Positions 17,070 to 45,763 of a DNA stretch of 64,000 bases are shown here, one piece after another. The notes beneath the pieces are model-generated. The model was not told the origin of the DNA, ran no database searches, and saw only the letters and a program-made list of their open reading frames with translations. The stretch is from Archaeoglobi archaeon JdFR-42 (GTDB lineage Archaea; Halobacteriota; Archaeoglobi; Archaeoglobales; JdFR-42), in assembly GCA_002010305.1 (NCBI GenBank), contig MTND01000009.1, positions 18,805 through 82,804 on the forward strand. Direction: 5' to 3'. The position numbers were made by a program, and so were the translations under genes. Numbering within the stretch: position 1 is the first letter of the stretch; each line of letters starts with the position of its first letter.

Positions 17070-17453
17070 TTACCTGGGAATCAGTTTTCTTCTACCCATA
17101 CTCTCAATGTAGACGACTTCTTCTCCTATAGCTACTTTCTCTTTCATCTCGTCTGGAATTGTCAGCTCGAAGGTACTGTAATCCCCCAAATCCATAAGCT
17201 GAGCCACATCTCCAGAAATCGATATCACCTGAGCAGTTTTCCTTTCTACAATCGGTACATATATCTTTGCAGTAACAGGTTCTATCAAAGATCTTTTCTG
17301 ACCATCGAAGATTCCAACCGCATCAATTCTGGCTTTTGCTGAGCCATGTTTCCCAGGTTTTGAAACAGAAATACTGATTATGGTACACGGTTCGTCTCCA
17401 ACCAGCACATACCTTCCCTCTTTAAGATTCCTAACTTCTGTTTGTTCTTTCAT
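17070..17453 (-). CDS. eif5a: translation initiation factor 5A
   Basis: The SKPGKHGSAKARI hypusine loop. The start at 17453 gives a typical ~127-aa protein. The ORF-track start at 17504 is also possible. Confidence 0.9.
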   Translation of the reverse strand: MKEQTEVRNLKEGRYVLVGDEPCTIISISVSKPGKHGSAKARIDAVGIFDGQKRSLIEPVTAKIYVPIVERKTAQVISISGDVAQLMDLGDYSTFELTIPDEMKEKVAIGEEVVYIESMGRRKLIPR

Positions 17454-17576
17454 GGTCTCGTCCAAACAGTTGGTGACTGGTAATTTAAAATTTTCGATTA
17501 CCATGCAGAAAACAATGCCAGTAAACCATTCTGAATGGATATGGAAATAGATAACTATTGAGGACTTAAAACAACA

Positions 17577-18770
17577 CTATTCTTTTTCCCTTACTTTTTC
17601 TGCAAAACTCTTTCCAAACTCAATACATTGCTGTATCTCGTCTTCTGTAGGAGTATACCTGAATATGAGCCCTGAATCAACTACCTCTATACCCCCCTCT
17701 CTTAACATTTCTTCAGCTTTTTTTACTCCCTCTCCACTCCATCCGTATGAGCCAAACACAGATGCTATTTTGTTAATAGGCTTAAGCCCCTTCATGTACG
17801 TCAAAAATCCCGCCACACTAGGATACAACTCCCGGTTCAAGGTAGGAGTACCTACAAGAATGCCTTTAGCCAGCATTATTTCCTTCATAATCCAGCTCCA
17901 GTCAGAATGTTTGAGGAGATATATCTCGTAATCCATTTTTTCTTCCTCGAGACCTTTCGCTATAGCCCACGCCATTTTTTCTGTACTTTCCCACATAGTA
18001 TCATAAACTATAATTACCTTATCTGCTGCCATTCCACTGCTCCATTTCCCATATAAATCCAAGATTTTTTCTACACCATTTCTCCATATCAGTCCGTGGC
18101 TGGGAGCTATCATTTTAATGGATATGTTCTGCTCTTTCAAATATTTCAGGACTTTCTGGACTTGTTTCGAATACAGCATGATTATGTTGGCATAATACTT
18201 GGCAGCTTCATCATAGGGATCTACGAAGCTAATTTCATCTGCAAATCTTTCCGAAGAAGCGATATGCTGGCCGAATCCGTCGTTGGGAAACAGAATTTCA
18301 TCCTCAACTAGATACGTGAACATGGTATCAGGCCAGTGAACCATGGGCGTTTCAATAAATTTGAAGGTTTTATTCCCGATTGAGAGCTCATCCCCAGTTT
18401 TTACTACATTGATGCTCCATTCATCACTGTAGATTCTCTCAATAACATCTCTTGCTCTTTTTGTGCAAAAGATTTCCCCATCTACTCTTTCCATCAAATA
18501 AGGGAGAGAGCTTGAATGATCATACTCTATATGATTCACAATCACATAATCTATTTTATCAAAATCTGTGACACTCTCTATCCTTCTGAGATACACATCC
18601 TTGAATTTCCAGTAAACTGTATCTATCAGGGCTGTTTTTTTGTCACTGACTAAATATGCATTATAGGTTGTTCCATAGGGGGTGTTGTAGCCATGAAAAT
18701 CCCTAACATTCCAATCTACAGTTCCAACCCAGTATACATTATCCGTCAGATTTATCAGTTTCATATCCAT
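17577..18770 (-). CDS. fprA: flavodiiron protein (FprA / rubredoxin:oxygen oxidoreductase family)
   Basis: N-terminal metallo-beta-lactamase-like domain (NHIEYDHSS, HWPDTMF) plus a C-terminal flavodoxin domain (IIVYDTMWESTEKMA, GSYGWSGEG). Confidence 0.85.
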   Translation of the reverse strand: MDMKLINLTDNVYWVGTVDWNVRDFHGYNTPYGTTYNAYLVSDKKTALIDTVYWKFKDVYLRRIESVTDFDKIDYVIVNHIEYDHSSSLPYLMERVDGEIFCTKRARDVIERIYSDEWSINVVKTGDELSIGNKTFKFIETPMVHWPDTMFTYLVEDEILFPNDGFGQHIASSERFADEISFVDPYDEAAKYYANIIMLYSKQVQKVLKYLKEQNISIKMIAPSHGLIWRNGVEKILDLYGKWSSGMAADKVIIVYDTMWESTEKMAWAIAKGLEEEKMDYEIYLLKHSDWSWIMKEIMLAKGILVGTPTLNRELYPSVAGFLTYMKGLKPINKIASVFGSYGWSGEGVKKAEEMLREGGIEVVDSGLIFRYTPTEDEIQQCIEFGKSFAEKVREKE

Positions 18771-18784
18771 CCCCTTCTAGACAG

Positions 18785-19291
18785 CTATTGTGAGACTTCA
18801 AGAGAGAACTCAGGAATATCAAACCAGAATCCGGTATTTCGAATATAATCAAGCTCTGATTGGATAAGAAGGTAATGAGAGAGTTCCATCTCTCCAAGCT
18901 TTTCCAGAATTTTTCTAGCAACAGGGTCTTTAACTTTTTCCTTTTGTTCCCTGTAAAACCTCATAGACCGTTCTTCCTGCTCAAGAGCCATCTCAAGGGC
19001 ATCAATCTCTTGCATACCAGATTTTCCTTTCTTTTTCTGAATTGAATCGAGCACTGGTATCAGCTTTTCTACCTCAGATTCGGGTATATCTACTTTCTCC
19101 CATCCCTTTTTCTCCCTGATATTATTCAGTTCTTTTTCAAGAATTTCCATATGAGCAAATTCATCTTTTGCGAGAGAGATAAACATATTTTTCCCAGTGA
19201 TATCTCTGGATTTTCTTGCAAATTCCAGATAACTCTTCAACCCGGCCTTCTCCACTTTAATGGCAAATTCAAGGGCCTCAACATCATCCAT
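18785..19291 (-). CDS. rubrerythrin-family diiron protein without a rubredoxin domain
   Basis: Four-helix-bundle pattern with two ExxH motifs (EFAHMEIL, EMELSHYLL) and paired Glu (EKAGLKSY, EQEERSMRFY). Confidence 0.7.
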   Translation of the reverse strand: MDDVEALEFAIKVEKAGLKSYLEFARKSRDITGKNMFISLAKDEFAHMEILEKELNNIREKKGWEKVDIPESEVEKLIPVLDSIQKKKGKSGMQEIDALEMALEQEERSMRFYREQKEKVKDPVARKILEKLGEMELSHYLLIQSELDYIRNTGFWFDIPEFSLEVSQ

Positions 19292-19327
19292 AGCAATCCC
19301 TTCATTTATTCCTTATTAAACTTCGTA

Positions 19328-19492
19328 TTAGATTTTCTCAAAATCTTCCTTTGAAGCTCCACATACCGGACAAACCCAGTCTTCTGGGAGTTCCTCCCAT
19401 TTGGTCCCGGCAGGTATATCATTCTCCTGATCTCCTTCTGCTTCATCATATATATACCCACATACCGTACATTGATACCTTGCCATTTTCAT
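19328..19492 (-). CDS. rub: rubredoxin
   Basis: Not in the ORF track (54 aa). Hand translation gives [54 protein letters not shown], with CxxCG ... CPxCG motifs. The start ATG overlaps the upstream stop (ATGA at 19489-19492). Confidence 0.85.
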
Positions 19493-19905
19493 CCCTCCAG
19501 TAACGCGCTTAATTCAGCATCATGCTTTTCTTCTTCAGATAAAATCCCTTCAAGGAGATTTTTTGTCACCACATCCCCCACATCTTCAGCCAGTTTTATA
19601 TGATTTCTGTATATATTAATGGCACCCCTTTCAGCATCGAGATCATCCTTTATCATTTCCTTAAGGGTCCCACCAACTTGGATTTCAGCCGCTTCACTGA
19701 CTGGAGAGCCACCTAGGTATCGGATTCGCTCCGCCAGTTGCTCTGCATGCATCATTTCCTGAATGGCAAATTTCCTAAAAAGTCCACTTACATCCAAGCC
19801 CCCAATGCCGATAGCCATCACACTGTGCCACATGTATTGCACAATGGATGCGAGTTCAAGTGAAAGATCCCTGTTCAGGGCCTCAATCAGCTCTTCTTTC
19901 CCCAA
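19489..19905 (-). CDS. ferritin-like / Dps-like diiron protein
   Basis: 138 aa. [24 protein letters not shown] and EEEKHDAEL fit ferritin-like ligand spacing. Confidence 0.65.
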
Positions 19906-19914
19906 AAAGATCCC

Positions 19915-20289
19915 TCACTCCACTCTTATTGATTTCGTCCCTTCCCAGACACCATGGAGATTGCATCTGGCAAGAGCTCTGAGAGGGAAATCATCATGAG
20001 GGTGATTAAGAGTGATCCGGATTACAAGCTTTGGATCGGAGAAAACCGGCGTTAAATCAAGTCTAACCAAGAAAGTGTCTCCATGCCACAGTTCAATCCA
20101 TTGAAAATGATGACCAGCTTCATTGGGATGGGCGAGTAATTTTCCCACCTCTACTTCAACTTCAAACGATTCTCCAGCTTTAACAGCATCTGGAGCTTCT
20201 ATAACAGGAGTGTGCTTTTTCTCGAGATCTGACATTTCTTTAGATTGGGCTTTTTTTATCCCACAAAACAGGTCCTCTTCACAACCCAT
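19915..20289 (-). CDS. sor: superoxide reductase (1Fe-SOR, neelaredoxin type)
   Basis: EKKHTPVIEAP, HPNEAGHHFQWIEL and CNLHGVW give the complete His4-Cys plus Glu ligand set. Confidence 0.85.
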   Translation of the reverse strand: MGCEEDLFCGIKKAQSKEMSDLEKKHTPVIEAPDAVKAGESFEVEVEVGKLLAHPNEAGHHFQWIELWHGDTFLVRLDLTPVFSDPKLVIRITLNHPHDDFPLRALARCNLHGVWEGTKSIRVE

Positions 20290-35650: not shown

Positions 35651-36832
35651 TCATTTCATATTACCTGATCCAATTACCATTTCCAGATCCTTATCTCCCC
35701 TACCAGAAAGACATATAACCACTTTCTCATTATTTCCCATACTCTTTGCGAGCTTAAGAGCGTAATACAGAGCATGAGACGATTCAAGAGCGGGAATAAT
35801 ACCCTCCAGCCTAGACAATAGATGAAAAGCTTTCAGTGCATCTTTGTCACATACAGATACAACTTCCATTCTTCCGCACTCTTTCAGGAAAGCAAGTTCA
35901 GGTCCAACACCTGGATAATCAAGACCTGCTGCGATACTGTGGGTTTCACAAATCTGCCCATCATGCTGGAGAAAATACGAGTACATTCCATGGAATACCC
36001 CCTTCTCTCCTTCACAAAGAGTTGCTGCGCCTTTTTTGCCGTCTCCGCCTGCTTCAACTCCAATCAGTCTTACACTTTCATCAAGAAAAGGATGGAAAAA
36101 ACCAATGGCATTACTTCCTCCCCCTACACATGCCACAAGTACATCCGGGTGTGCCATTTTTTTCTTAACTTCCTGGCCTATGATAGATTGAAAATCCCTT
36201 ACAATAGTGGGATACGGATGAGGACCAACAACAGAGCCAATGAGATAATGGGTTGTTTCAAAGCTGGCAACCCAGTCTTTCAGGGCCTGATTAATAGCCT
36301 CTTTCAGCGTCATGGAACTTTCTCTTACCACATGAATCTTAGCCCCCAGTAACTTCATTCTGAAGACGTTTGTATTCTGGCGTTCGACATCCTTCGCACC
36401 CATATAAATTTCAGTTTTCAATCCAAACAGAGCTCCAACCATCGCTACTGCAGTTCCATGCTGTCCTGCTCCAGTCTCAGCAATTATCCGATTCTTTCCC
36501 ATTTTGAGAGCGAGTAATGCCTGACCGATGGCATTGTTAATCTTGTGGGCACCTCCATGCAAGAGGTCTTCTCTCTTGAGATAAATCTCCGCACCACCAC
36601 TTATTTTCGTGAGATTTCTTGCAAGAGTTAAAGGAGTTGGTCTGCCAGCGTACTCTTTCAGACAGCTCTTGTATAGCCTCCAGAATTCTCGATTCTTTTT
36701 TACCTTCTCATATTCCCTTATGAGCTCTCTCAGAGGCTGAATGAGAGGTTCTGGGACATAATATCCACCAAATTTACCAAATTTTCCAGATGTACCATAT
36801 TTGGTATATTTATTAATCTCTTTCACCACCAT
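35651..36832 (-). CDS. trpB: tryptophan synthase beta chain
   Basis: [12 protein letters not shown]-lysine motif and GGGSNAIG. Confidence 0.95.
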
Positions 36833-36853
36833 ATTCTTCTTCTTTCTATTCCG

Positions 36854-37435
36854 TCACCTTATGTATTCGTTATACCAGTTCTCCATAAGCAGAAATCCCT
36901 GCGGGGATAGAACGCTTTCTGGATGAAACTGAACTCCCTCCAGTGGACGATTTTTATGTCTTAATGCCATAATTATTCCATCTGAAGTTCTAGCAGAAAC
37001 TTCCATAATTCGGGGTGGATTTTCTACAACTAGTGAGTGATACCTCCCAACCCTCATGGGTTCTGGCAATCCTTTGAAAATTGTTTTTCTATCATGAAAT
37101 ATCTTAGAGATCTTTCCATGAACCGGGCCAGATGGACTTAACTTTATTTCGGCGCCATATGCAAATCCAAGAGCTTGATGCCCCAGACATATACCCAGTA
37201 TCGGAATTTCTACTAGATTTTTAATGATCTCTATACAGCTTCCTACATCCCTTTTCCGTCGTGGTGTACCTGGTCCTGGAGAGATTACCACTCCCTTCAG
37301 ATTGCTGAATCTCTTCTCAAGAAAGGCTGAAGTAATAATGTTGGACACCACTTTCACATCTGATTCTATTCTGGATAAATATTCCACCAGATTCCATACA
37401 AAGGAGTCCTTGTTATCTACAACTACCACGGTCAT
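36854..37435 (-). CDS. trpG: anthranilate synthase component II (glutamine amidotransferase)
   Basis: GICLGHQ catalytic Cys motif and the HPES His-Glu. Confidence 0.9.
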   Translation of the reverse strand: MTVVVVDNKDSFVWNLVEYLSRIESDVKVVSNIITSAFLEKRFSNLKGVVISPGPGTPRRKRDVGSCIEIIKNLVEIPILGICLGHQALGFAYGAEIKLSPSGPVHGKISKIFHDRKTIFKGLPEPMRVGRYHSLVVENPPRIMEVSARTSDGIIMALRHKNRPLEGVQFHPESVLSPQGFLLMENWYNEYIR

Positions 37436-37451
37436 TTCATAATCCCCAATT

Positions 37452-38846
37452 TTATAACCCCAGAGCTTTTTTTAACCCCATCATCTTATGTTCTGTCTCG
37501 CGGTATTCTTTCTCCGGGACAGAATCTGCCACAATACCTGCTCCTGCCCTTAGAGTAGCAATCTTCCTTTCAGAATCGTAAATACAGGTTCTAATCGCTA
37601 TAGCAAAGTCTGCATTTCCATTAATTGAGAAATAACCCACTGTTCCACCATATATTCCTCTAGGGGAGTTTTCAAGGCTGTTAATGAGCTCAATGGCCCT
37701 CAGTTTTGGTGCTCCTGTTACTGTCCCTGCTGGAAAGCCAGCTTCTACTGCATCGAACTGATCCTTGTTGTTGTCAAGCTCCCCTTCCACCATACTTTCA
37801 ATATGCTGGACGTGAGAATATTTTACTACTTGCATAAAATCTCTCACTCTGACACTTCCGGGCTTCGAAACCTTTCTGACATCATTTCTAGCCAGATCAA
37901 CAAGCATTACATGTTCTGCTCTCTCTTTCTCATTTTCCAGTAGCTTTCTGGCAAGTTCTTCATCTTCTTTGCTGTTTCTCCCCCTTGGACAGGTTCCAGC
38001 TATAGGATTTATGATCACTTTCCCATTATGAACACTCACCAAGGTCTCAGGACTTGATCCAAAAATATACAGAGGGTTAAAGTCGAGGAAAAACATGTAG
38101 GGGCTTGGATTTAACAACCTGAGCCTGTTATATACATCTCTTATGTTTCCTTCGTAATAAAAATCCAGTTTCCTGGAAATAACAAGCTGAAAAACATCTC
38201 CTTTCATTATGTAATCTCTGGCTTTTTCCACTTTTTCTACAAACTCTAGTTTTTCCATATCTCCTGAAACAAAACGACAGACTTCTTTTTTTGGTTTACC
38301 CTCAGACTTTCTGAACACTCCAAGAATATCTGAATTTCTGTCTGTGAATTCAACGATAAACATCTTTTTCAAAACATGATCCAAAACAACGACTTTATCA
38401 TAGAAGGCGAAATCAGCAAATATCTTTCCCCCTGTACCTTTTCCACTTTCTCCTATCATCAAGCTGGCAGTGTCGTGGGAAATATATCCAACAAGACCTC
38501 CGAGGAAAACCGATGTTTCTAGGCTGATAGAAGGTAACGATACAGGCTTTATCCCTTCCACCATACAGTTCATCACAGCTCTTAATATGGAGAATGGATT
38601 TCCAGTTGAATGATTCAGAGAATCAAGGATTCGTTCTTCAATAGAGGTCTCCCCAACCATCGTTACACCTCTTTCACCAATTTTTATCCTGAAGAGAGGG
38701 TTTCCTCCAACAAAAGTAAACCTACCTTTCTTATTCATCTTCTCTCTAGACTCTAGAATAAATGGGAGATCTGTCATCCTAAATCTCTCATACACATCAA
38801 TTTCCTTCATGTAAGGTCTTTCTGTGATTCTAATCGTAAAATTCAA
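37452..38846 (-). CDS. trpE: anthranilate synthase component I
   Basis: GTVTGAPK and the chorismate-binding C-terminal domain. Confidence 0.9.
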
Positions 38847-39519
38847 AACTTTTCACCTCCCTGACGAACTCAGAGACTTTTTGCCTGTTTTTACGTCCTC
38901 TAATTTCCACCCCTGACGAGACATCTACTCCAGCAGGACGCAGGAAGAGAGCTTGTTGGACATTCTCCGGATTTAATCCACCTGCCAGAATTACCGGAAT
39001 ACTGCTTCCCTGAATTACTTCCCGGCTGACCCTCCAATCATGAGGTATACCAGTTCCTCCTTCCAAGAGATCTGTATCCAAGACAAGACCATCTACCTCA
39101 TATATTTGCTGCAAAAAGAGGAGCTTTTTTGCCTCAATTTCTGGATTTTCAGCTTTTATCGGGACTTTCAGTACTTTGAAAATCTTTCCTGAAAAATCCT
39201 CTTTTATCTTCTCTACTTCCTCAGACGTAATATCTCCGTGAAGCTGAATTGCATCTGGTTTTATATGCTCGATGATCCTAATAATCTCCTCTGAAGATGT
39301 TGAGGTAGTGACAAAGAAACTAGTCAGCCCATTACCTCTTGCCATAGATATCAGTTCTCTCGCTTTATTTGCTGTGATTCTCCTTTTAGAGTTCACCTTT
39401 CCAACTACAAACCCAATTCCGTCCACACCACTCTGAGTAAGGAGTTCAATATCCTTTTCCTCTTTGATTCCACAAATTTTGATAAAAACCTGGTCTTTCA
39501 GAATTTCAAACACGTCCAC
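38830..39519 (-). CDS. trpF: phosphoribosylanthranilate isomerase
   Basis: KICGI start, QLHG, and position within the trp operon. Confidence 0.85.
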   Translation of the reverse strand: MDVFEILKDQVFIKICGIKEEKDIELLTQSGVDGIGFVVGKVNSKRRITANKARELISMARGNGLTSFFVTTSTSSEEIIRIIEHIKPDAIQLHGDITSEEVEKIKEDFSGKIFKVLKVPIKAENPEIEAKKLLFLQQIYEVDGLVLDTDLLEGGTGIPHDWRVSREVIQGSSIPVILAGGLNPENVQQALFLRPAGVDVSSGVEIRGRKNRQKVSEFVREVKSFEFYD

Positions 39520-40522
39520 ACCTCAATCTCCTATAATATGCCATAACTCTTTTCACGTGTTTCAACACTGTACCATCCTCAAAACCGTGTCTGCATGCTT
39601 CAATCCCATCTTCTATACTCTGAACTCTTTCAGCAGCATAAAGAGCCATTCCAGCGTTTATGAGTATAAAATCTCTGATTGGGCCCTCTTTATTGGAAAA
39701 AGCATCCAAGATGACTCTCTTATTATACCTACTGTCTCCTCCAGCAACCTCTGTGAGTTTTCTTCTCTCAAATCCAAAGTCTTCTGGCTGTATAGCATAG
39801 CTATCAACACAATTCCTCACTTCATACACCTGAGTTGCCTCTGCTATAGATACCTCATCCAGTCCAGAGCCATGTACTACAATACCCCTAATACCCAGCA
39901 TCAGCATCGATTCGGCTAGGATCTTGCATAGATGTGGGCTATAAACACCAATAAGCTGATAATCTGGTTCCACAGGATTGGATAATGGTCCCAGGATATT
40001 GAAGATAGTAGGTATCTTCAAAATTTTGCGTACTCCTGCAACTCTGGACATAGTTCGATGGATCAAAGGGGCGTACAGAAAAGAGAGACCAGCTTCCTGG
40101 AGAGTTAGATTCACCATCTCGGATGTCAGGGAAGGATGAATCCCTAATTCTTTCAGTAAATCTGCACTTCCACACCTTGATGTTATACCAGAGTTTCCAT
40201 GCTTGGCAACCGGAATAAAGCATGATAAAACGAGGGCTGATGCAGTGCTCACATTTATTGTATTCAGGCCATCTCCTCCTGTACCACATGTGTCCGCAAC
40301 ATGCATGGAGACCTCTATCTTTCCCGCCATATGCCTTAGTGCTCTTGCAAATCCTGTGACTTCTTCTGAAGTGATCTGTTTAGTCTGTAAGGCTGAAAGG
40401 ATGGCTGCCACTTCAACATCACTTGCATATACCATTTGCCTTAAAAGCTGGTCAGCTTCATCTACTCCCAGATCCTCTCCTGACATCAGTTTGTTTAATG
40501 CTAGAGAAATGCTTGAAACCAT
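39506..40522 (-). CDS. trpD: anthranilate phosphoribosyltransferase
   Basis: DTCGTGGDG and KHGN motifs. Confidence 0.9.
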   Translation of the reverse strand: MVSSISLALNKLMSGEDLGVDEADQLLRQMVYASDVEVAAILSALQTKQITSEEVTGFARALRHMAGKIEVSMHVADTCGTGGDGLNTINVSTASALVLSCFIPVAKHGNSGITSRCGSADLLKELGIHPSLTSEMVNLTLQEAGLSFLYAPLIHRTMSRVAGVRKILKIPTIFNILGPLSNPVEPDYQLIGVYSPHLCKILAESMLMLGIRGIVVHGSGLDEVSIAEATQVYEVRNCVDSYAIQPEDFGFERRKLTEVAGGDSRYNKRVILDAFSNKEGPIRDFILINAGMALYAAERVQSIEDGIEACRHGFEDGTVLKHVKRVMAYYRRLRCGRV

Positions 40523-41199
40523 TATATCGCCTCCACAAAAGATCTTACAGTCTTTTCCGGGTTACTAGCTAGCATAAAGGCTGTTCCAACAAGTATGCCA
40601 TCTACAACTTTCATGACCTCTCTAACATCGGATATAGAGCCTATTCCACTCTCACTGATAAGGATAGATGATTTTGGGACAAACTTCGAGAGTAAGAGAG
40701 TTCTAGAGATATCACCGTCATCCTTTTCCAGCTTTGTAATGTCCCTATTGTTTATGCCAATAAGCTTTGCATGATACTTTTTCGCAATATCAATATCATC
40801 CTTGCAACTGGTTTCTACCAGACCAGCAATACCATAATCGTGACAGTAATCAAGCATGATCCCCAGTCTGTCTTTTACCATGCCTGCGAGGAACAGGACA
40901 GCATCAACTCCACAATCCACACTGTCATCGATATCTTGTATATCCAGAATGAAGTCTTTTCTTAACACAGGTAAGTTGCTCACTGAACACAAATCTTTGA
41001 GAAGTCTCATATCCCCACCAAAAAATCTGCTCTCAGTTATATACGAAATTGCTCTTGCGCCTCCTTTTTCATATGCATCCAGAAGTGTAAAAGGGTCTCT
41101 CCCCCTCATCAGATCTCCATATTTTGGGGATCTCGGTTTGATCTCAGCAATCACCGCATTGGCGCCATTGTCTATACTGAGAGCTCGAATAAACCTCAT
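40522..41199 (-). CDS. trpC: indole-3-glycerol-phosphate synthase
   Basis: IAEIKPRSP and LRKDF motifs. First gene of the trp run. Confidence 0.85.
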   Translation of the reverse strand: MRFIRALSIDNGANAVIAEIKPRSPKYGDLMRGRDPFTLLDAYEKGGARAISYITESRFFGGDMRLLKDLCSVSNLPVLRKDFILDIQDIDDSVDCGVDAVLFLAGMVKDRLGIMLDYCHDYGIAGLVETSCKDDIDIAKKYHAKLIGINNRDITKLEKDDGDISRTLLLSKFVPKSSILISESGIGSISDVREVMKVVDGILVGTAFMLASNPEKTVRSFVEAI

Positions 41200-41297
41200 A
41201 CCACACCCTCTCTTATATTTTTACAATATATCCCGCAAAACAAGCAAACTGTCCAGAAATATCTTTTCAGAGATTTTCTCGAGAAATACTGACTGTA

Positions 41298-41316
41298 TGT
41301 AAATCCGGTATTTACA
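41298..41316. promoter_or_regulatory. 19-bp palindrome TGTAAATCCGGTATTTACA in the trp / ACT-regulator divergent region
   Basis: 7-bp inverted repeat with a 5-nt spacer and the same TGTAAA-N7-TTTACA geometry as the other copies, 99-117 nt upstream of the trpC ATG. A separate perfect 12-bp palindrome TTTCTCGAGAAA lies at 41275..41286. Confidence 0.5.
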
Positions 41317-41611
41317 GTTTCTTTCAAAAAACTGGATTTAAAGGCCGTATATAACTCTGAACCTAATCCTAAATAAAATAACTTTCTGAGATTATAAGGC
41401 CCTAACAGGCCAAACGCATTCACCTCTGGTATTACTTGGTATCACTGTAGCGATTCCTATCATCCATATCACTCGACAATCAACCACATATATGGTATTT
41501 AAATCTTTCTATTATGAATAAACTCAAAAATTGGTATTGAACTACTATAATGTGGTGTAAACCTATAATACAGGGGAAACCTTTAAAAGTTTCTTTATAA
41601 ATCTTCATTTA

Positions 41612-42109
41612 ATGTGGGATCGAATCAAGAGTAAATTTGATAAGTACCCTTCAAGGATGGAAGTAGCCAAAGAATTTCTGAGACTGGGCATTTCGGTCAG
41701 AGATGGAAAAGCCTGGTGTGGCAATATTGAATTAACACCGTCTAAAATAGCCAGAACCCTTGGAGTAGACAGAAAAGTAGTTCTTTCAACTATTCAGATT
41801 ATTGAACGTGATGAAGTCCTCAAAAAGGTATATTCTCTTATAAAACCCATCGCATATATTGGAGATGTGGCCCAACTTTTTGACTTTGGGGTACTGGAGA
41901 TATATGCAGAATCTGAAAAAAGCGGTATTGTTGGAAGTATTGCAGGGATACTTGGGAAAGAGGGTATATCCATTCGGTTTATAATAGCAGAAGACCCTGA
42001 GTTGAGTATTGACCCTAAACTCACCATTGTTACAGAAAAAAGAGTGCCGGGTCGAATTATAGACCAGTTACTAAAAGTCAATGGAGTGAAAAAAATTGTG
42101 GTTTCCTGA
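41612..42109 (+). CDS. ACT-domain putative regulator of amino-acid metabolism (N-terminal DNA-binding-like region + ACT)
   Basis: 165 aa. The N-terminal half is HTH-like (PSKIARTLGVDRKVVLSTIQ). The C-terminal half has an ACT pattern (LEIYAESEKSGIVGSIAGILGKEGISIR). It is divergent from the trp operon. Confidence 0.65.
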   Translation: MWDRIKSKFDKYPSRMEVAKEFLRLGISVRDGKAWCGNIELTPSKIARTLGVDRKVVLSTIQIIERDEVLKKVYSLIKPIAYIGDVAQLFDFGVLEIYAESEKSGIVGSIAGILGKEGISIRFIIAEDPELSIDPKLTIVTEKRVPGRIIDQLLKVNGVKKIVVS

Positions 42110-42110
42110 A

Positions 42111-43286
42111 TTACCTTCTCGAGATGCTCAGCATTTCTACTGTGAAAGCTATGAAGGAGAGCAACAGAATTATCCCTCCTACCATCACTACATATGCCGT
42201 TAAAGGCTGAAGAACGAACAGTATTATACCTGCATTTGTTGAATATAAAAGAGTTCTGGCTAGTTTTGCATTGTACATATCCTTGATCATAGGAACATCC
42301 TGAACTCCAAGTTTCGTGCTGTATTTTTCAATCCAGACCATCATAGGCACTATGTGGTACATGGCACCGATAATGGTGAGAGTTATCCATCCTACCAAGA
42401 TGAAATGCACATGAAGAAACCGGAGAGGATATACAAGATTCAACAGTCCAAGAGTTACCCCAATGACGCTGTAGAATAATCCATACACAAAGAAGACTGC
42501 ACTTATGTCGACTTCATCATGATCTCCCGGCTGAAAGTATGAGCGCACCATATTGTAGAAGAATAGATAAAAAGATACAACAAAGATAGAGCCGGATAAA
42601 ATCAGATAACTTCTGTCGAAAGTGAATGCCAAGAACATTCCCACCAAGCCGACATTAGAGAGCCAAAATTGCCATTTAGCTAAGGTAAGAGAATGGAGCT
42701 TTTTGAGAGCCAGCATTGGCAATAATTCATGGAGACCACCCATGGTAGTTATAACAACCCATCCAATAACAAGCAAGTGGGCATGAGCTAGAACGTTAAA
42801 AGGTACAATCCCCAATCTAGATAACACAACCAGGATGACACCCACAATAAAGTATATAATAGCAGCAACAAAGAACCAACCAGCTGGGCTCATTTTATGC
42901 CATCCTTTCACCCTGAATACTGTGTCAAAAATCATGTAAGCAAAGATAATAGATGCAAGGGCAAAAATCGTTCCAAAGAGTTTCAAAAGGCCGTAATTAT
43001 ACAGGAATGCGAAAAACATACCCATAATACCAATGTTAGACAACCAGAATTGAAGATCAGGCAACCTAGAAAAACGAAGATTGACCCCTAGGAAAGTGGG
43101 AACTATCTGGTACATGGCTCCCATGATTGTCAGAGAGACAAAACCAAGAAGCATCAAATGAACATGAGCAGCTCTGAATTCAGGCTTTAAAGTTACAATG
43201 ATCCCGAAAATAGCTCCCACAACCAAGTAGAATAAAGACGTGATTAGGAATCTCAGCGGTAATTTTTTGTATAGAACATTTTCCAT
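42111..43286 (-). CDS. 12-TM histidine-rich membrane protein with a threefold internal repeat (possibly NnrS-like or heme-copper-oxidase-subunit-I-like; family not assigned)
   Basis: 391 aa. HVHLMLLGFVSLTIMGAMYQIVP (res 41-63), HAHLLVIGWVVITTMGGLHELLP (168-190) and HVHFILVGWITLTIIGAMYHIVP (292-314). Also QFWLSNIGIMGMFFAF (79-94) versus QFWLSNVGLVGMFLAF (206-221). Confidence 0.6.
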   Translation of the reverse strand: MENVLYKKLPLRFLITSLFYLVVGAIFGIIVTLKPEFRAAHVHLMLLGFVSLTIMGAMYQIVPTFLGVNLRFSRLPDLQFWLSNIGIMGMFFAFLYNYGLLKLFGTIFALASIIFAYMIFDTVFRVKGWHKMSPAGWFFVAAIIYFIVGVILVVLSRLGIVPFNVLAHAHLLVIGWVVITTMGGLHELLPMLALKKLHSLTLAKWQFWLSNVGLVGMFLAFTFDRSYLILSGSIFVVSFYLFFYNMVRSYFQPGDHDEVDISAVFFVYGLFYSVIGVTLGLLNLVYPLRFLHVHFILVGWITLTIIGAMYHIVPMMVWIEKYSTKLGVQDVPMIKDMYNAKLARTLLYSTNAGIILFVLQPLTAYVVMVGGIILLLSFIAFTVEMLSISRR

Positions 43287-43314
43287 ACTTTGTTTCCTCC
43301 TTTTTTATCTGTAG

Positions 43315-43479
43315 TTAGATGTATTGCTCTAGTTCTTTGATCAGCTTACCTGTATCAAGATTTTTTTGTTGAGCATGCTTTTCCAGACTCAAATTCCCTC
43401 CACAGCAGTCACAGATTCCATATTTTAAGAGAATTTGTTTTAAATTTGGATACGACCGCAGAACTTCTGAAAGAGTCAT
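43315..43479 (-). CDS. DUF1858-type small redox-disulfide domain protein
   Basis: MTLSEVLRSYPNLKQILLKYGICDCCGG... The ATG at 43479 begins 2 nt after the upstream stop. The ORF-track start at 43506 would overlap it. Confidence 0.65.
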   Translation of the reverse strand: MTLSEVLRSYPNLKQILLKYGICDCCGGNLSLEKHAQQKNLDTGKLIKELEQYI

Positions 43480-43480
43480 G

Positions 43481-43999
43481 TCAGGTCTGATTTTCATTTT
43501 TTTCACGCTCCTTACGAATGTATTTTCTAAGATCAGGAAGTGGTCTACTGAGAGCCTCTTTTACCTTCATCACTTCCATAATCTTTTCGTATTTTTCATC
43601 TCCAACACATTTCTTTGCGTACTCACACCACTCAATACAGCTATCTATATCAAAGATTATCTCTCTTCCACAATTGTCACACGTTCCCTTTATCTCATCC
43701 GTCCACCGTTCCACTTCAGCACCACAGTCAGGACAGTTAACTATCTCCAACTTTGGCCTGAGAATGGTGGCAGCCCCAGGACATCTTCCCGGAACAATCT
43801 CAGGTTTGCGAATCTCCAGTTTCACATAATCTCCCTGCTGAGTAGTAGTCACAGAATAACCTTCATCCTTTAATCGTTTAATAAGAGGAGTAGGCTCTGT
43901 TTCTATGATCACATCTAGCTCTTCAGATTCCCTCAGTTTTTCAAAGATAAGAGGGTACTTCTCTTCTCTTTTCAGATTCCTGACATCCAGAACTTCCAT
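43481..43999 (-). CDS. DUF2249 domain fused to an 8-cysteine zinc-ribbon-like C-terminal domain
   Basis: N-terminal LDVRNLKREEKYPLIFEKL ... DVIIETEPTPLI (DUF2249 pattern). The C-terminal Cys pattern is C-x16-C-x2-C-x14-C-x2-C-x10-C-x3-C-x5-C. Confidence 0.6.
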   Translation of the reverse strand: MEVLDVRNLKREEKYPLIFEKLRESEELDVIIETEPTPLIKRLKDEGYSVTTTQQGDYVKLEIRKPEIVPGRCPGAATILRPKLEIVNCPDCGAEVERWTDEIKGTCDNCGREIIFDIDSCIEWCEYAKKCVGDEKYEKIMEVMKVKEALSRPLPDLRKYIRKEREKNENQT

Positions 44000-44003
44000 G
44001 ACC

Positions 44004-44201
44004 TCACCTTCGGATTTCTACCCTCCAGTGATCTTCTTCTTTAATACTCTTGCATGAATATCCTTTCTGGGTAAGCATCTGGATGAGAGGAACAGGATTT
44101 ACTTCTACGATCAAATCCAATTCCCCTTCTTCCTCAAGCTTCTGTATGACGAGAGGAGGCCTCTCAGGATGAGGTATTTTTCTGACATCAAGGGTTGTCA
44201 T
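44004..44201 (-). CDS. DUF2249 domain protein
   Basis: 65 aa. LDVRKIPHPERPPLVIQKLEE ... LIVEVNPVPLI. Confidence 0.65.
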   Translation of the reverse strand: MTTLDVRKIPHPERPPLVIQKLEEEGELDLIVEVNPVPLIQMLTQKGYSCKSIKEEDHWRVEIRR

Positions 44202-44480
44202 CTAAACCTCCTTCAACATTTCTTCAACTTCTTTATCCCGTATGTAGTCTACTACTTTGATCTCTATTTCCTTCGCTCCCGCTTCCCTTACTGCCTTTTT
44301 AATGGCCACTGCCAGTTGCATTCCAATAGGACAGAAAGGACTGGAAGGTTTGAAGGTTAGCTTAACCAAATCTCCATCCACTGTCAGATCCTCTATGAGA
44401 CCCATATCATACACACTCTGAGCTGTATGAGGGTCCATCACATTTTTTAATTTTTCAATTACTTCTTCTTGTGTTACCAT
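44202..44480 (-). CDS. DUF59 / MIP18-family Fe-S assembly-related protein
   Basis: VMDPHTAQSVYDMGLI ... SSPFCP motif. AGGTGAT lies 5 nt upstream of the ATG. Confidence 0.7.
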   Translation of the reverse strand: MVTQEEVIEKLKNVMDPHTAQSVYDMGLIEDLTVDGDLVKLTFKPSSPFCPIGMQLAVAIKKAVREAGAKEIEIKVVDYIRDKEVEEMLKEV

Positions 44481-44767
44481 CTATATCACCTGTAATACTT
44501 TTATATCTACCACATAATTAAGATATTCCCTTATATGTCAGGTAGAAACAGGCTAGGAGTGAGTATTCTAACCCCCAGAATATGTTTACCCCTCCCCCCA
44601 TAATAGTGAGAGGTACTACCACTTTATTTCTGCAAAGTACTATATCACAAACGAGTCAAGCTTACAATTTTCATAGAGAATGATTATAAAAATATAGAAG
44701 AGAGGATTATCCATTAATGAATTTTTTGCTTTCATTTCTCACAAAAGGAAGTCTCCTAACCTCTATT

Positions 44768-45763
44768 TCATGTCTTCCTTCTTCTTTTCTCATATACTGA
44801 ATTCAAAATTCCCATTATACCTTTGGGAGTTGCAATTATAACAACTATTATAAGAATACCTATGAATATCAGATAATTACGGAAAGTCGTACTCACATAG
44901 TTGATGAACAACACCATGATGGCTGTACCAATGATAGGGCCAGCAATGGTTCCGGACCCCCCAATCAGAGTCCATATAACCGGTTCACCTGAAACGGCTA
45001 TGGTAAAGAGGTTGGCACTAGTGTAGTGAGAGATCAGATTGGCATTTAATGCTCCACTCAGACCAGCAAATCCCCCAGCAACTATGAAAGAAGTTAGTTT
45101 AATCCTCTTGACATTATAACCGATAACGGATGCTCTTAGTTCGTTTTCCCGTATAGACTGAAGAACTTTTCCATATGGAGATTCAACTATCCTCTTGTAT
45201 ATAAGAAAGGCAATTACAAAAAAGATTAGGGCAAAATAATAATCGTTGGTGAGATTGTGGAAAGAGATTGTTGTACCAAAAAACTTCCAGGCTGGCACTC
45301 TGAAGGTTAAACCATCATCTCCTCCAGCAATCCATTTCCAGTTTAATGCAGCGAGATACATCACAACTGAGAATATTATAGTGATAATAGCAAAATAGAG
45401 ACCTGTCACTCTTATAGCAAAAAAACCGATCAACCATGCCGCACCGAGGCACACTATTACAGCAAAAAGGATAGAGGTGAGAAAACCCCCTGAGAGGTGC
45501 TGAATGGTGAGAGCTACCGTGCTGGCACCCAGACCGTAGAATATAGACTGGCCAAAGCTCAGTTCACCGGTATAACCGAATAGAACATTGAATCCCATGG
45601 CAAAAATACTGAATACCAGAATTTGAGTTACCAGCACTTTATAGAAATAACCCAGAAAGGGCTGAAGAATGGCTATAACTATCACCACCACTGTAAATAT
45701 AAAGTAATAAAGGATCTCTTTATTGAGAGCAAATAACTTTCTCTCCATTGGATTTGATCCCAT
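44768..45763 (-). CDS. livM: branched-chain amino acid ABC transporter permease (LivM type)
   Basis: Polytopic membrane protein with a LivM-like pattern. GGAGGT lies upstream of the ATG. Confidence 0.8.
   Translation of the reverse strand: MGSNPMERKLFALNKEILYYFIFTVVVIVIAILQPFLGYFYKVLVTQILVFSIFAMGFNVLFGYTGELSFGQSIFYGLGASTVALTIQHLSGGFLTSILFAVIVCLGAAWLIGFFAIRVTGLYFAIITIIFSVVMYLAALNWKWIAGGDDGLTFRVPAWKFFGTTISFHNLTNDYYFALIFFVIAFLIYKRIVESPYGKVLQSIRENELRASVIGYNVKRIKLTSFIVAGGFAGLSGALNANLISHYTSANLFTIAVSGEPVIWTLIGGSGTIAGPIIGTAIMVLFINYVSTTFRNYLIFIGILIIVVIIATPKGIMGILNSVYEKRRRKT

What the first reader, a model, noticed from the sequence alone, without database searches (positions are those of the whole stretch)
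42111..44480. Tightly coupled five-gene operon: DUF59, DUF2249, DUF2249-Cys8, DUF1858 and the HxH membrane protein
Gene junctions are 0, 4, 1 and 28 nt, and the first gene has an SD/TATA. DUF2249 and DUF1858 (the redox-disulfide domain also found at the N-terminus of ScdA/RIC-type proteins) are domains that, in bacteria, accompany NnrS, hemerythrin and NO/nitrosative-stress genes. DUF59 proteins act in Fe-S cluster handling. The combination suggests a membrane-anchored metal-centre repair or NO/O2-responsive system. None of the five components has a defined biochemical function, and the set lies 22 kb from the ROS island on the same strand.
Basis: inference. Interest (0 to 1): 0.65.

Follow-up and report, generated by a model that had tools for sequence, protein, structure and literature searches.

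The report
Symmetric oxidase-like haem protein operon
A five-gene archaeal operon encodes a membrane protein related to respiratory oxidases but built from three near-identical units, plus four small metal- and thiol-handling partners. The gene set is conserved in archaea and bacteria, has never been tested, and is probably tied to nitric-oxide or redox stress.

Summary
The five genes are real. They lie on the minus strand at 42111-44480 and are packed as described, except that gene 4 starts at 43497 and overlaps gene 3 by 17 nt instead of lying 1 nt after it.

The "HxH membrane protein" belongs to the haem-copper-oxidase (HCO) superfamily (Pfam COX1, 79.7 bits). Its AlphaFold model (pLDDT 95) matches cbb3 oxidase subunit N at TM-score 0.81. 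It is not an oxidase, because it has no CuB histidine pair and no partner subunits. It consists of three four-helix units that are 24-40% identical, each carrying an HxH. It looks like a fused form of free-standing four-helix HxH proteins, which also exist.

The neighbourhood is strongly conserved. DUF59 is adjacent in 91 of 96 loci from archaea and bacteria, and a DUF2249-like gene is present in 85 of 96. The full five-gene order occurs in Archaeoglobaceae and Ferroglobus.

Pei et al. (2014) predicted the superfamily link and the DUF2249 association in silico as "HCO-homology" proteins, a group that includes NnrS. Context in other genomes (YgbA_NO, DrpB-like fusions, ferredoxins) points to NO or redox stress.

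The most likely role is a haem-binding, NnrS-like protective or sensing module. No experiment supports this. I class it as a new variant of a known, uncharacterised kind.

The parts
44529..44542 (-). Conserved inverted repeat (CCTGA-CATA-TAAGG) directly upstream of the TATA-like box. Candidate operator for an unknown regulator.
   Evidence: The same element (consensus about CCCnnAA-N4-TTnAGGG) sits at the same place upstream of g1 in L005, L017, L018, L021, L022, L025, L027 and L006. A leave-one-out PWM scores the window site at 13.6 bits, second best in 128 kb scanned. That is not significant window-wide, but p is about 6e-4 for falling in this 40-nt stretch.
44514..44521 (-). TATA-like box TTAATTAT, about 37 nt upstream of the g1 ATG.
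   Evidence: Read from the sequence. It aligns with TTTAATTATA in L005/L017 and with TATA-like boxes in the other archaeal loci.
44485..44490 (-). Shine-Dalgarno-like GGTGAT upstream of g1.
   Evidence: Read from the sequence. The same AGGTGAT is present in L018, L025, L027 and L006.
44202..44480 (-). g1: 92-aa DUF59 / FeS_assembly_P protein with the conserved motif RPSSPFCPIG.
   Evidence: Pfam PF01883, 52.4 bits. Scores far below the NCBIfam SufT and PaaD cut-offs. A homologue is adjacent to the membrane gene in 91/96 loci. Motif conservation shown.
44004..44201 (-). g2: 65-aa DUF2249 (TusA-like fold without the Cys). The motif DVRGLPHPERPP is conserved in the archaeal homologues aligned (the window itself reads DVRKIPHPERPP).
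   Evidence: Pfam PF10006, 35.7 bits. Alignment. A DUF2249-like gene is present in 85/96 loci.
43481..43999 (-). g3: 172-aa fusion of a DUF2249 domain (residues 1-65) with a Cys8 module (residues about 72-131, nt 43607-43786). The module has a CPxC...CxNC zinc-ribbon plus C73 and C-x3-C-x5-C.
   Evidence: Pfam DUF2249, 30.8 bits, plus weak zinc-ribbon hits. All 8 Cys are invariant in 7 homologues and in stand-alone 80-107-aa versions in L010, L030, L031 and L032. The AF2 N-domain matches SirA/TusA structures 3hz7 and 3lvj_C. Only 7 clusters of the fusion exist among 5.8 billion proteins.
43315..43497 (-). g4: 60-aa ScdA_N/DUF1858 domain protein with the conserved motif GIC[DN]CCGG. It overlaps g3 by 17 nt.
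   Evidence: Pfam PF04405, 41.2 bits. NCBIfam hits to the N-termini of RIC/YtfE/ScdA. The start codon was fixed by the homologue alignment and the SD.
42111..43286 (-). g5: 391-aa, 12-TM haem-copper-oxidase-superfamily homologue made of three 4-TM units (EU1 43286-42897, EU2 42896-42513, EU3 42512-42114). HxH pairs are H41/H43 (43166-43158), H168/H170 (42785-42777) and H292/H294 (42413-42405), plus H311.
   Evidence: Pfam COX1, 79.7 bits. AF2 pLDDT 95.3, pTM 0.93. Foldseek top hit is cbb3 CcoN 3mk7 at TMq 0.81, and all top 50 hits are HCO/NOR subunit I. EU-EU BLASTP E-values run from 6.5e-25 to 5e-15. His conservation. Topology: 10 K+R in the inside loops against 1 in the outside loops.
42089..42095 (-). 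T7 run 16 nt after the g5 stop. A likely archaeal terminator, lying inside the 3' end of the convergent trpY gene.
   Evidence: T-run scan and sequence.

Best explanation
One operon encodes a haem-binding membrane protein of the haem-copper-oxidase (HCO) superfamily and four small cytoplasmic partners.

Shown:
- g5 has the 12-helix oxidase subunit-I fold.
- g5 consists of three 4-helix units that are still 24-40% identical. Each unit has an HxH at the outer end of its second helix.
- g5 lacks the helix-VII His-His pair of the CuB/FeB site and has no oxidase partner subunits.
- The pair H43+H168 is invariant in every relative. The other four His and H311 are kept only in the archaeal clade.
- A DUF59 gene and a DUF2249 and/or ScdA_N gene accompany the membrane gene in essentially every complete locus.

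Inferred:
- H43+H168 bind a low-spin b-type haem at the site equivalent to the low-spin haem of oxidases.
- The archaeal protein binds up to two more haems (or a haem plus a metal) at the two symmetry-related sites, H41/H294 and H170/H292.
- The partners are DUF59, two DUF2249 domains, a Cys8 zinc-ribbon/possible Fe-S module, and a CC-motif ScdA_N domain. Together they amount to a split Thermus DrpB plus a SufT-like protein. They act at the conserved cytoplasmic face (Q60, D260, H/K311, W318-P332).
- The physiological role is protection from, or sensing of, nitric oxide or a related membrane-soluble reactive species, as proposed for the distant relative NnrS. It is not energy-conserving respiration.
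For: Fold and family:
- Pfam COX1 above its gathering score.
- AF2 pLDDT 95.3.
- Foldseek TMq 0.81 to cbb3 CcoN, and the top 50 hits are all oxidase or NOR subunit I.

Haem ligands:
- A HMMER profile against PDB sequences aligns EU1's HxH-(20)-P with the CcoN helix-X 'GHVHAGALGW...YHLVP'.
- It aligns H168 with the helix-II His and H294 with the helix-VI His.
- The two His kept in all 18 bacterial sequences and in every bacterial locus (H43, H168) are exactly the pair this register predicts to sandwich the low-spin haem. The chance that a random pair of the six is a cognate inter-unit pair is 3/15.

Symmetry:
- EU-EU E-values from 6.5e-25 to 5e-15 in the window protein, and down to 2e-43 (49% identity) in Hydrothermarchaeota members.
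- Free-standing 4-TM proteins of 115-160 aa are 35-45% identical to EU1. All 14 full-length single-unit proteins read carry HxH, and most have the Y-H-[IL]-L-P motif.

Partners:
- DUF59 in 91/96 loci, DUF2249-like in 85/96. The loci without DUF2249 carry ScdA_N instead or are truncated contigs.
- DUF1858-DUF2249-DUF2249 fusions sit directly upstream of the membrane gene in L033 and L035.
- SufT-DUF1858 fusions are reported in PMC4982691.

NO or redox context:
- YgbA_NO (PF11756) lies in the operon in 5 Arcobacteraceae loci.
- A CRP/FNR regulator is adjacent in L013-15.
- ScdA_N is the N-domain of RIC/YtfE.
- DUF2249 genes are induced under denitrification in Haloferax (PMC11218638).
- A DUF1858 gene is NnrR-dependent in Bradyrhizobium (PMC6710368).
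- DrpA/DrpB affect nitrate-respiration control and nitrate-reductase activity, and DrpB is membrane-associated (PMC6282519).
- nnrS belongs to NO regulons and contributes to NO resistance (PMC3345576, PMC1274295).

Regulation:
- A conserved promoter-proximal inverted repeat suggests regulated expression.
Against: - There are no expression, binding or cofactor data for any member of this family.
- The archaeal loci have no nitrogen-oxide genes next to them. In the window the flanks are a trp operon and an amino-acid ABC transporter.
- Geoglobus and Hydrothermarchaeota are not known denitrifiers (own knowledge).
- I could not read the model coordinates, so His-His distances and cavity sizes for three haems were not measured.
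- The three-fold pseudo-symmetry makes the register against real oxidases ambiguous.
- The His sit near the outer face while all partners look cytoplasmic (no signal peptides). Direct electron transfer from the partners to the haems would therefore span too great a distance, and the partners' role is unresolved.
- g5 does not match Pfam NnrS, so the NnrS analogy rests on superfamily membership only.
Confidence: 0.45

Rival explanations
1. It is a signal-transduction device like Thermus DrpA/DrpB. The haem membrane protein senses a gas or redox signal. The DUF1858/DUF2249 proteins then relay that signal to transcription by protein-protein interaction, without catalysis.
For: g2+g3+g4 together reproduce the DrpB domain set. 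Fused DrpB-like genes sit directly upstream of the membrane gene in L033 and L035. DrpB is membrane-associated and modulates the Dnr regulators (PMC6282519). Regulators lie nearby in some loci: CRP/FNR in L013, ArsR-type HTH_5 in L009 and a response regulator in L012/L065.
Against: No regulator is conserved across loci. The invariant partner is DUF59, which has no known signalling role. The drp double mutant also lost nitrate-reductase activity despite normal protein levels, which points to maturation rather than pure signalling (PMC6282519).
Confidence: 0.2
2. It is a catalytic membrane reductase, for example a new NO or O2 reductase for anaerobes. It would be fed by ferredoxin-type Fe-S proteins or by quinol, with a haem-haem or haem-metal active site in place of haem-CuB.
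For: It has the oxidase fold, retains the proximal His of the high-spin haem and one CuB-type His (H41, H294), and has invariant polar residues on the cytoplasmic side (Q60, D260, H/K311) that could form a proton path. In L031 four ferredoxin or polyferredoxin genes are embedded in the operon and a cysteine desulfurase follows it. In L033 a Fer4_5 polyferredoxin, a flavoprotein-FeS oxidoreductase and a Rieske protein flank it. In L035 a flavin reductase lies nearby.
Against: The helix-VII His pair required in all known HCO and NOR active sites is absent in every register. Most relatives keep only two His, enough for one bis-His haem, which would have no open coordination site. The cytoplasmic donors are far from haems that lie near the outer face.
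Confidence: 0.15
3. It is a cofactor- or metal-handling machine. DUF59, the Cys8 module and ScdA_N would assemble, insert or salvage Fe-S clusters, iron or haem at the membrane. The membrane protein would be the client or a conduit rather than the effector.
For: DUF59 proteins (SufT, CIA2) act in Fe-S maturation (PMC4982691). A cysteine desulfurase is adjacent in L031, and CGGC-domain proteins are adjacent in Hydrothermarchaeota. ScdA_N belongs to iron-centre repair proteins. The drpAB double mutant shows little nitrate-reductase activity despite normal production of the enzyme's structural components (PMC6282519).
Against: g1 scores far below the SufT and PaaD equivalog cut-offs. No suf or isc genes are conserved nearby. 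The membrane protein itself has no Cys, so it is not an Fe-S client.
Confidence: 0.15
4. It is what databases call it: a cbb3-type cytochrome c oxidase subunit I that reduces O2.
For: The Pfam COX1 hit, the source annotations and the best structural match being cbb3 CcoN.
Against: NCBIfam ccoN scores 53 bits against a cut-off of 583. There is no CuB His pair. No ccoO/ccoP or subunit II gene occurs in any of the 96 loci. At 391 aa it is shorter than CcoN (about 474 aa). The hosts include strict anaerobes.
Confidence: 0.03

Closest known systems
HCO-homology (HCOH) proteins with three evolutionary units, including NnrS (Pei, Li, Kinch & Grishin 2014, Protein Sci 23:1220). The paper is not held in the library. 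Its content is known to me from memory and from its citation in PMC11218638.
   Same: A 12-TM protein homologous to oxidase subunit I and made of three 4-TM units. Two universally conserved His are predicted to bind one haem. Genomic association with DUF2249. Presumed link to denitrification or NO detoxification. No biochemical function established.
   Different: The archaeal clade keeps all three HxH pairs plus H311 (7 conserved His), and its units are unusually alike (up to 49% identical). It does not match Pfam NnrS. I do not know of, and could not check for, a published description of the near-universal DUF59 partner or of the five-gene archaeal arrangement with the Cys8 module.
cbb3-type cytochrome c oxidase subunit CcoN (PDB 3MK7)
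   Same: Same fold (TMq 0.81). The helix-X signature HxH...G..YH[IL]VP is reproduced almost literally in EU3 and EU1.
   Different: No helix-VII HH pair, so no CuB. No CcoO/CcoP. About 80 residues shorter. Two extra His occupy positions that are not His in oxidases. All three units resemble TM9-12 of CcoN.
Free-standing single-unit (4-TM) HCOH proteins
   Same: 35-45% identical to each unit of g5, with the same HxH and mostly the same Y-H-[IL]-L-P motif. One sits in the same operon as a three-unit protein in Ignavibacterium (L033).
   Different: They would have to trimerise to form the fold. g5 is the covalent three-unit version, with a unit-specific conserved cytoplasmic loop in EU3.
Thermus thermophilus DrpA/DrpB (PMC6282519)
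   Same: DrpB is DUF1858 + 2 x DUF2249 and DrpA is DUF2249. That is the same domain set as g4+g2+g3. DrpB associates with the membrane.
   Different: Here the domains are split over three genes, one is fused to a Cys8 module, and they are linked to an HCOH gene and DUF59 rather than to a nar operon. No regulatory role has been shown here.
RIC / YtfE / ScdA di-iron repair proteins
   Same: g4 is homologous to their N-terminal ScdA_N domain, including the CC motif.
   Different: g4 is only 60 aa and lacks the hemerythrin-like di-iron domain that carries the RIC activity.
SufT / DUF59 Fe-S maturation factors (PMC4982691)
   Same: A single DUF59 domain with the conserved Cys-Pro motif.
   Different: Scores far below the SufT and PaaD family cut-offs. 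Not in a suf operon. Its constant neighbour is the HCOH gene.

Membership tests
Haem-copper oxidase / NO reductase catalytic subunit (functional enzyme) | 12-TM subunit-I fold with three-fold pseudo-symmetry | tested here: met
   AF2 pLDDT 95.3 with 12 long helices. Foldseek TMq 0.73-0.82 to many oxidases and NORs. Pfam COX1 79.7 bits against GA 34.8.
Haem-copper oxidase / NO reductase catalytic subunit (functional enzyme) | His ligands of the low-spin haem (helix II + helix X) and proximal His of the high-spin haem (helix X) | tested here: inconclusive
   His residues align with these positions. The register is ambiguous because of the pseudo-symmetry, and cofactor binding itself cannot be tested here.
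Haem-copper oxidase / NO reductase catalytic subunit (functional enzyme) | Three His ligands of CuB/FeB (one in helix VI, an adjacent HH pair in helix VII) | tested here: not met
   No His at all in helices 3, 7 or 11 (residues 75-96, 200-222, 340-358), which are the helix-VII equivalents in all three possible registers.
Haem-copper oxidase / NO reductase catalytic subunit (functional enzyme) | Partner redox subunit encoded nearby (subunit II, CcoO/CcoP or NorC) | tested here: not met
   None in the window operon or in any of the 96 loci. NCBIfam ccoN scores 53 bits against a cut-off of 583.
Three-unit HCO-homology (HCOH) proteins (Pei et al. 2014) | Detectable homology to subunit I, three 4-TM units, incomplete canonical His set, and two conserved His | tested here: met
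   The definition is recalled from the paper's abstract, which I could not re-read.
Three-unit HCO-homology (HCOH) proteins (Pei et al. 2014) | Genomic association with DUF2249 genes | tested here: met
   85/96 loci. The association is stated in PMC11218638, citing Pei et al.
NnrS (PF05940) | Match to the NnrS family model | tested here: not met
   hmmscan of g5, P0052 and P0037 at E<=0.01 returns only COX1 or nothing.
NnrS (PF05940) | Haem and copper content; membership of an NO-responsive regulon | not testable with these tools
   Needs protein chemistry and expression data.
DrpB-type proteins (Thermus) | DUF1858 followed by two DUF2249 domains in one polypeptide | tested here: not met
   In the window the three domains are on three separate genes. 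The fused form occurs next to the orthologous membrane gene in L033 and L035.
DrpB-type proteins (Thermus) | Located beside a nar operon and controlling it | tested here: not met
   The flanks are a trp operon with trpY and an amino-acid ABC transporter. Control of nar was not testable.
RIC / YtfE / ScdA | ScdA_N domain plus a hemerythrin-like di-iron domain | tested here: not met
   g4 is 60 aa and has the ScdA_N domain only. Scores of 29-32 bits fall far below cut-offs above 200.
SufT (TIGR02945 / TIGR03406) | Score above the equivalog cut-off; suf operon context | tested here: not met
   39 bits against 143, and 19 bits against 203. No suf genes are adjacent.

The most novel reading that the evidence does not exclude
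The archaeal protein is a covalently fused, still nearly symmetric version of the homotrimeric four-helix HxH haem protein from which haem-copper oxidases and NO reductases arose. It would bind three equivalent bis-His haems in a ring, including one in the pore that is empty in every known oxidase. It would work with a dedicated DUF59/DUF2249/ScdA_N/Cys8 cytoplasmic module to handle NO or O2 in strict anaerobes. That would make it a living representative of the pre-oxidase architecture with a function of its own.
Probability: 0.3. Interest if true: 0.8.

Novelty: new variant of a known kind. Interest (0 to 1): 0.55.

Why it matters
Haem-copper oxidases and NO reductases underlie aerobic respiration and denitrification, and how their 12-helix catalytic subunit arose is an open question. 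This locus offers a tractable protein in which the three ancestral units are still recognisably alike and each keeps its HxH. Free-standing single-unit relatives and two-His bacterial relatives are available for comparison.

The haem stoichiometry is easy to measure. The prediction is three haems in the archaeal clade and one in the bacterial clade. Measuring it would test the trimer-fusion model directly.

The locus also ties four widespread 'domains of unknown function' (DUF59 outside suf operons, DUF2249, DUF1858/ScdA_N and a new Cys8 module) to one membrane partner. The linkage holds in at least 432 of the 185,579 species-representative genomes scanned, including cultivable Campylobacterota and Bacillales. 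Their function therefore becomes experimentally approachable.

It also corrects a recurrent mis-annotation, 'cbb3-type cytochrome c oxidase subunit I' in strict anaerobes, which can mislead metabolic reconstructions of MAGs.

Tried and rejected
1. A weak NCBIfam rusticyanin hit on the 115-aa ORF upstream of the Campylobacterota genes suggested a cupredoxin or subunit-II analogue. Alignment of 25 copies and jackhmmer showed it is a divergent DUF2249 (FDTSxxGPPxPM...). The idea was dropped.

2. I first read the ATATAAAAG at 44506-44498 as the TATA box. Comparison with orthologous promoters favours TTAATTAT at 44521-44514.

3. The promoter inverted repeat is not significant as a window-wide PWM search. 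The maximum over shuffles is 13.8±2.7 bits against 13.6 observed. Only its position is significant. A 10.3-bit hit upstream of the SOR gene (20313-20292) overlaps that gene's own TATA/SD and was not taken as a shared operator.

4. An Rfam search of 41000-45000 found nothing.

5. The AF2 model of g3 is good only for the DUF2249 domain. The Cys8 part (pLDDT about 60-80) gave no structural match, so Fe-S versus zinc binding is undecided.

6. The afdb50 fold library was unavailable.

7. The key paper (PMC4243994) is not held. Searches for 'HCOH', for 'DUF59 + NnrS' and for Pei's title together with NnrS found nothing.

8. I asked whether the high unit-to-unit identity reflects a recent or independent triplication. 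An NJ tree of units groups them mostly by position, so the triplication predates the archaeal clade.

9. The 165-aa convergent neighbour is conserved in L005, so I considered it a possible sixth member. It is a TrpY-family regulator and was excluded.

10. An all-against-all comparison of archaeal flanks found no further conserved family beyond g1-g5.

11. No paralogue of any of the five genes exists elsewhere in the window.

Full report
OBSERVATION

Five ORFs lie head to tail on the minus strand at 42111-44480.
- g1 (44480-44202, 92 aa) is FeS_assembly_P/DUF59.
- g2 (44201-44004, 65 aa) is DUF2249.
- g3 (43999-43481, 172 aa) is DUF2249 followed by a region with eight cysteines.
- g4 is ScdA_N, with DUF1858 from the same clan just below threshold.

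The junctions g1/g2 (0 nt), g2/g3 (4 nt) and g4/g5 (28 nt) are as stated. The g3/g4 junction is not. All homologues of g4 begin M-x-I-x-P-[DE]-M-T. An AAGGAG precedes the ATG at 43497, and gene callers on identical metagenome contigs choose that start. So g4 overlaps g3 by 17 nt.

Every gene has a Shine-Dalgarno-like sequence. There is no T5+ run within g1-g4 or at the junctions, and a T7 run follows the g5 stop. The sequence therefore supports one transcription unit, but transcription cannot be tested here.

WHAT THE MEMBRANE PROTEIN IS

g5 (391 aa) matches Pfam COX1 at 79.7 bits, well above the gathering score, in three separate stretches. An AlphaFold2 model built on 40 homologues is very confident (pLDDT 95.3, pTM 0.93) and has 12 long helices. 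Its best matches among solved structures are cbb3 oxidase CcoN (3mk7, TM 0.81 normalised to the query). The next 49 matches are all oxidase or NO-reductase subunit I.

Lys and Arg are 10:1 in favour of the loops predicted to face the cytoplasm. The N-terminus is therefore inside and the HxH motifs sit at the outer ends of helices 2, 6 and 10, as in oxidases.

It is nevertheless not an oxidase:
- The helix that should carry the adjacent His-His pair of the CuB/FeB site has no histidine in any of the three possible registers.
- The NCBIfam ccoN model scores 53 bits against a cut-off of 583.
- No subunit II, CcoO/P or NorC gene occurs in any related locus.

The public annotation 'cbb3-type cytochrome c oxidase subunit I' is therefore misleading.

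INTERNAL SYMMETRY AND THE HISTIDINES

The protein is three repeats of a four-helix unit (residues 1-130, 131-258, 259-391). Pairwise BLASTP gives 24-40% identity with E-values of 6.5e-25, 7e-15 and 5e-15. In Hydrothermarchaeota members the units reach 49% identity (E 2e-43). In bacterial relatives the similarity is weak (E 1e-3 to 1e-8). A tree of units groups them mostly by position, so the triplication is older than the archaeal clade.

An exhaustive phmmer search with unit 1 alone against 1.84 billion representatives found 558 proteins. Dozens are free-standing 115-160-aa proteins, 35-45% identical. All 14 full-length single-unit proteins that I read carry the same HxH, and most have Y-H-[IL]-L-P.

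Conservation splits the family:
- All archaeal sequences keep H41, H43, H168, H170, H292, H294 and H311.
- All bacterial sequences keep only H43 and H168, with K at 311.
- Q60, D260 and W318 are invariant throughout.

A HMMER profile against PDB sequences aligns unit 1 with CcoN helices 9-12, so that HxH falls on the helix-X 'GHVH'. It aligns H168 with the helix-II histidine and H294 with the helix-VI histidine. From my recollection of the cbb3 structure, not re-checked here, these are respectively the ligands of haem b3 and haem b, the second ligand of haem b, and one CuB ligand.

In that register:
- The universally conserved pair H43+H168 is the low-spin haem site.
- H41/H294 occupy the binuclear-centre side.
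- H170/H292 define a third, symmetry-related site that is empty in oxidases.

Retention of exactly a cognate pair in the bacterial clade (chance 3/15) supports inter-unit bis-His ligation. I could not access the model coordinates, so the geometry was not measured.

DISTRIBUTION AND NEIGHBOURHOOD

A word-index search of 5.8 billion proteins gave 63 clusters. A pattern scan of one genome per species found 432 relatives.

The seven-His clade occurs in Archaeoglobaceae (closest 59% identity), Ferroglobus, Geoglobus, Hydrothermarchaeota and unclassified Methanobacteriota MAGs. The window is thus from an uncultured Archaeoglobaceae relative. The two-His clade is mostly Campylobacterota (Sulfurimonas, Sulfurospirillum, Arcobacter), with some Bacillales, Ignavibacterium and Chloroflexota.

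Across 96 loci:
- A DUF59 gene lies next to the membrane gene on the same strand in 91.
- A DUF2249-like gene is present in 85. This count includes the ~115-aa upstream ORF of Campylobacterota, which proved to be a divergent DUF2249.
- The loci without DUF2249 carry ScdA_N instead or are truncated contigs.

Gene orders in different lineages:
- The exact five-gene order recurs in L005, L017, L018, L021 and L022.
- Geoglobus has g1-g2-g5.
- Hydrothermarchaeota have ScdA_N-DUF59-g5, or CGGC-DUF59-Cys8-ScdA_N-g5.

The flanks differ between genomes and no further family is conserved.

THE PARTNERS

- g1 is a bare DUF59 with the conserved SPFCP motif. It is far below the SufT and PaaD cut-offs.
- g2 and the N-domain of g3 have the TusA/SirA fold but no active-site Cys. 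In g2 that site carries the conserved PHPERPP motif; g3 reads KREEKYP there.
- The Cys8 module of g3 has a CPxC...CxNC zinc ribbon plus C73 and C-x3-C-x5-C. It is invariant. It also exists as a separate gene in four archaeal loci, so it is an independent module. The fusion itself is rare, with 7 clusters.
- g4 carries the conserved GIC[DN]CCGG motif of the ScdA_N domain found at the N-terminus of RIC/YtfE.

None of the four has a signal peptide, as read from their N-termini.

Together g4+g2+g3 reproduce the domain set of Thermus DrpB (DUF1858 + 2 x DUF2249). Fused DrpB-like genes sit directly upstream of the membrane gene in Ignavibacterium and Chloroflexota. DrpB is membrane-associated. The drpAB genes influence both the regulation of nitrate respiration and the activity of nitrate reductase (PMC6282519). 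DUF59-DUF1858 fusions have been reported (PMC4982691).

FUNCTIONAL CONTEXT ELSEWHERE

- Five Arcobacteraceae loci extend the operon with an FmdE-like gene and a YgbA_NO gene. From my own knowledge and PMC1274295, E. coli ygbA is an NsrR-repressed, NO-induced gene.
- L013-15 have a divergent CRP/FNR regulator and a second HCOH-DUF59 pair.
- In L031 four ferredoxin or polyferredoxin genes are embedded in the operon and a cysteine desulfurase follows it.
- In L033 the cluster also holds a single-unit HxH protein. It is flanked by a Fer4_5 polyferredoxin, a flavoprotein-FeS oxidoreductase and a Rieske protein.
- Published data link the accessory families to nitrogen-oxide metabolism. DUF2249 genes are induced in denitrifying Haloferax (PMC11218638). 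A DUF1858 gene is strongly NnrR-dependent in Bradyrhizobium (PMC6710368).
- The distant relative NnrS is a member of NO regulons and contributes to NO resistance (PMC3345576, PMC1274295).

REGULATION

All archaeal loci compared share an inverted repeat immediately upstream of a TATA-like box in front of g1. In the window it is CCTGA-CATA-TAAGG at 44542-44529, with the TATA-like box at 44521-44514. As a window-wide motif it is not significant, but its position is. It is a candidate operator.

MOST LIKELY MECHANISM

Shown:
- The fold.
- The three-unit symmetry.
- The histidine pattern.
- The absence of a CuB site.
- The conserved partnership with DUF59 and DUF2249/ScdA_N.

Inferred:
- A low-spin b haem at H43/H168 in all members.
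- Up to two further haems, or a haem plus a metal, in the archaeal clade.
- Partners acting at the conserved cytoplasmic face (Q60, D260, H/K311, W318-P332).
- A role in protection from, or sensing of, NO or a related reactive species.

I put this at 0.45. The rivals are a DrpAB-like signalling device (0.2), a true ferredoxin- or quinol-fed reductase (0.15), a cofactor or metal-handling machine (0.15), and a genuine cbb3 oxidase (0.03).

One difficulty applies to every electron-transfer model. The partners are cytoplasmic, but the histidines lie near the outer face.

COMPARISON WITH WHAT IS KNOWN, AND NOVELTY

Pei et al. (2014) described 'HCO homology' proteins in silico. These comprise single-unit and three-unit families, including NnrS, most with two conserved His, and linked by context to DUF2249 and to denitrification or NO. 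I know the abstract from memory and its use in PMC11218638. The paper itself was not available.

The locus therefore belongs to a known but experimentally untouched kind. The following appear to go beyond that description, though I could not verify this:
- The seven-His, highly symmetric archaeal clade.
- The near-universal DUF59 partner.
- The Cys8 module.
- The split-DrpB arrangement.
- The conserved promoter element.

The ROS island 22 kb away is real, but nothing links it to this operon.

Noticed in passing
window 41612-42109 (+): The convergent 165-aa gene is a TrpY-family trp regulator (NCBIfam NF053754, 184.8 bits). Its stop lies 1 nt from the g5 stop, so the operon's T7 terminator sits inside the trpY 3' end. 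The same convergent gene neighbours the operon in L005, although no trp operon is adjacent there.
   Followed up: partly
window 35651-41199 (-): A complete-looking trp operon (IGPS, anthranilate phosphoribosyltransferase, PRAI, anthranilate synthase I/II, TrpB) lies directly downstream of trpY (Pfam labels from the identical contig L001).
   Followed up: no
window 15501-20289 (-): An oxidative-stress cluster: FMN reductase, flavodiiron protein (ODP + flavodoxin), rubrerythrin, ferritin/Dps-like protein and desulfoferrodoxin. The flavodiiron protein is itself a candidate O2/NO reductase. No link to the five-gene operon was found.
   Followed up: partly
window 44529-44542 (-), and upstream of g1 in L005, L017, L018, L021, L022, L025, L027, L006: A conserved inverted repeat (about CCCnnAA-N4-TTnAGGG) lies 8-10 nt upstream of the TATA-like box. 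It is a candidate binding site for an unidentified regulator.
   Followed up: partly
L031:370-5660: In a groundwater archaeal MAG the operon reads DUF59 - Cys8 - 2x[4Fe-4S] ferredoxin - DUF1858 - polyferredoxin - Fer4 protein - RnfB-like FeS protein - HCOH - class-V aminotransferase (cysteine desulfurase-like).
   Followed up: partly
L033:60-8123: An Ignavibacterium album MAG has a single-unit HxH HCO homologue (187 aa), DUF2249, a DrpB-like fusion, a three-unit HCOH and DUF59 in a row. The cluster is flanked by a Fer4_5 membrane polyferredoxin, a Pyr_redox_2/Fer4_20 flavoprotein and a Rieske protein.
   Followed up: partly
L040, L042, L051, L057, L075 (e.g. L051:5607-6543): Arcobacteraceae versions of the operon carry an FmdE-like gene and a YgbA_NO (PF11756) gene directly after DUF59. 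The FmdE-like gene alone occurs in 11 loci.
   Followed up: partly
L009/L010/L011/L023/L024/L028 (e.g. L010:3697-4233): Hydrothermarchaeota loci have a PCP_red + CGGC-domain protein just upstream of the cluster. L009 also has an ArsR-type HTH_5 gene just downstream.
   Followed up: no
L013:7373-9174 (-): A bacterial metagenome locus carries a second, divergent HCOH paralogue (483 aa, different His pattern) with its own DUF59. It converges on the first HCOH, and a CRP/FNR regulator lies next to it.
   Followed up: no
window 44481-44767: The 287-nt intergenic region upstream of g1 contains a G-rich stretch (GGGGGGAGGGG, about 44597-44587). It has no ORF and no Rfam match.
   Followed up: partly
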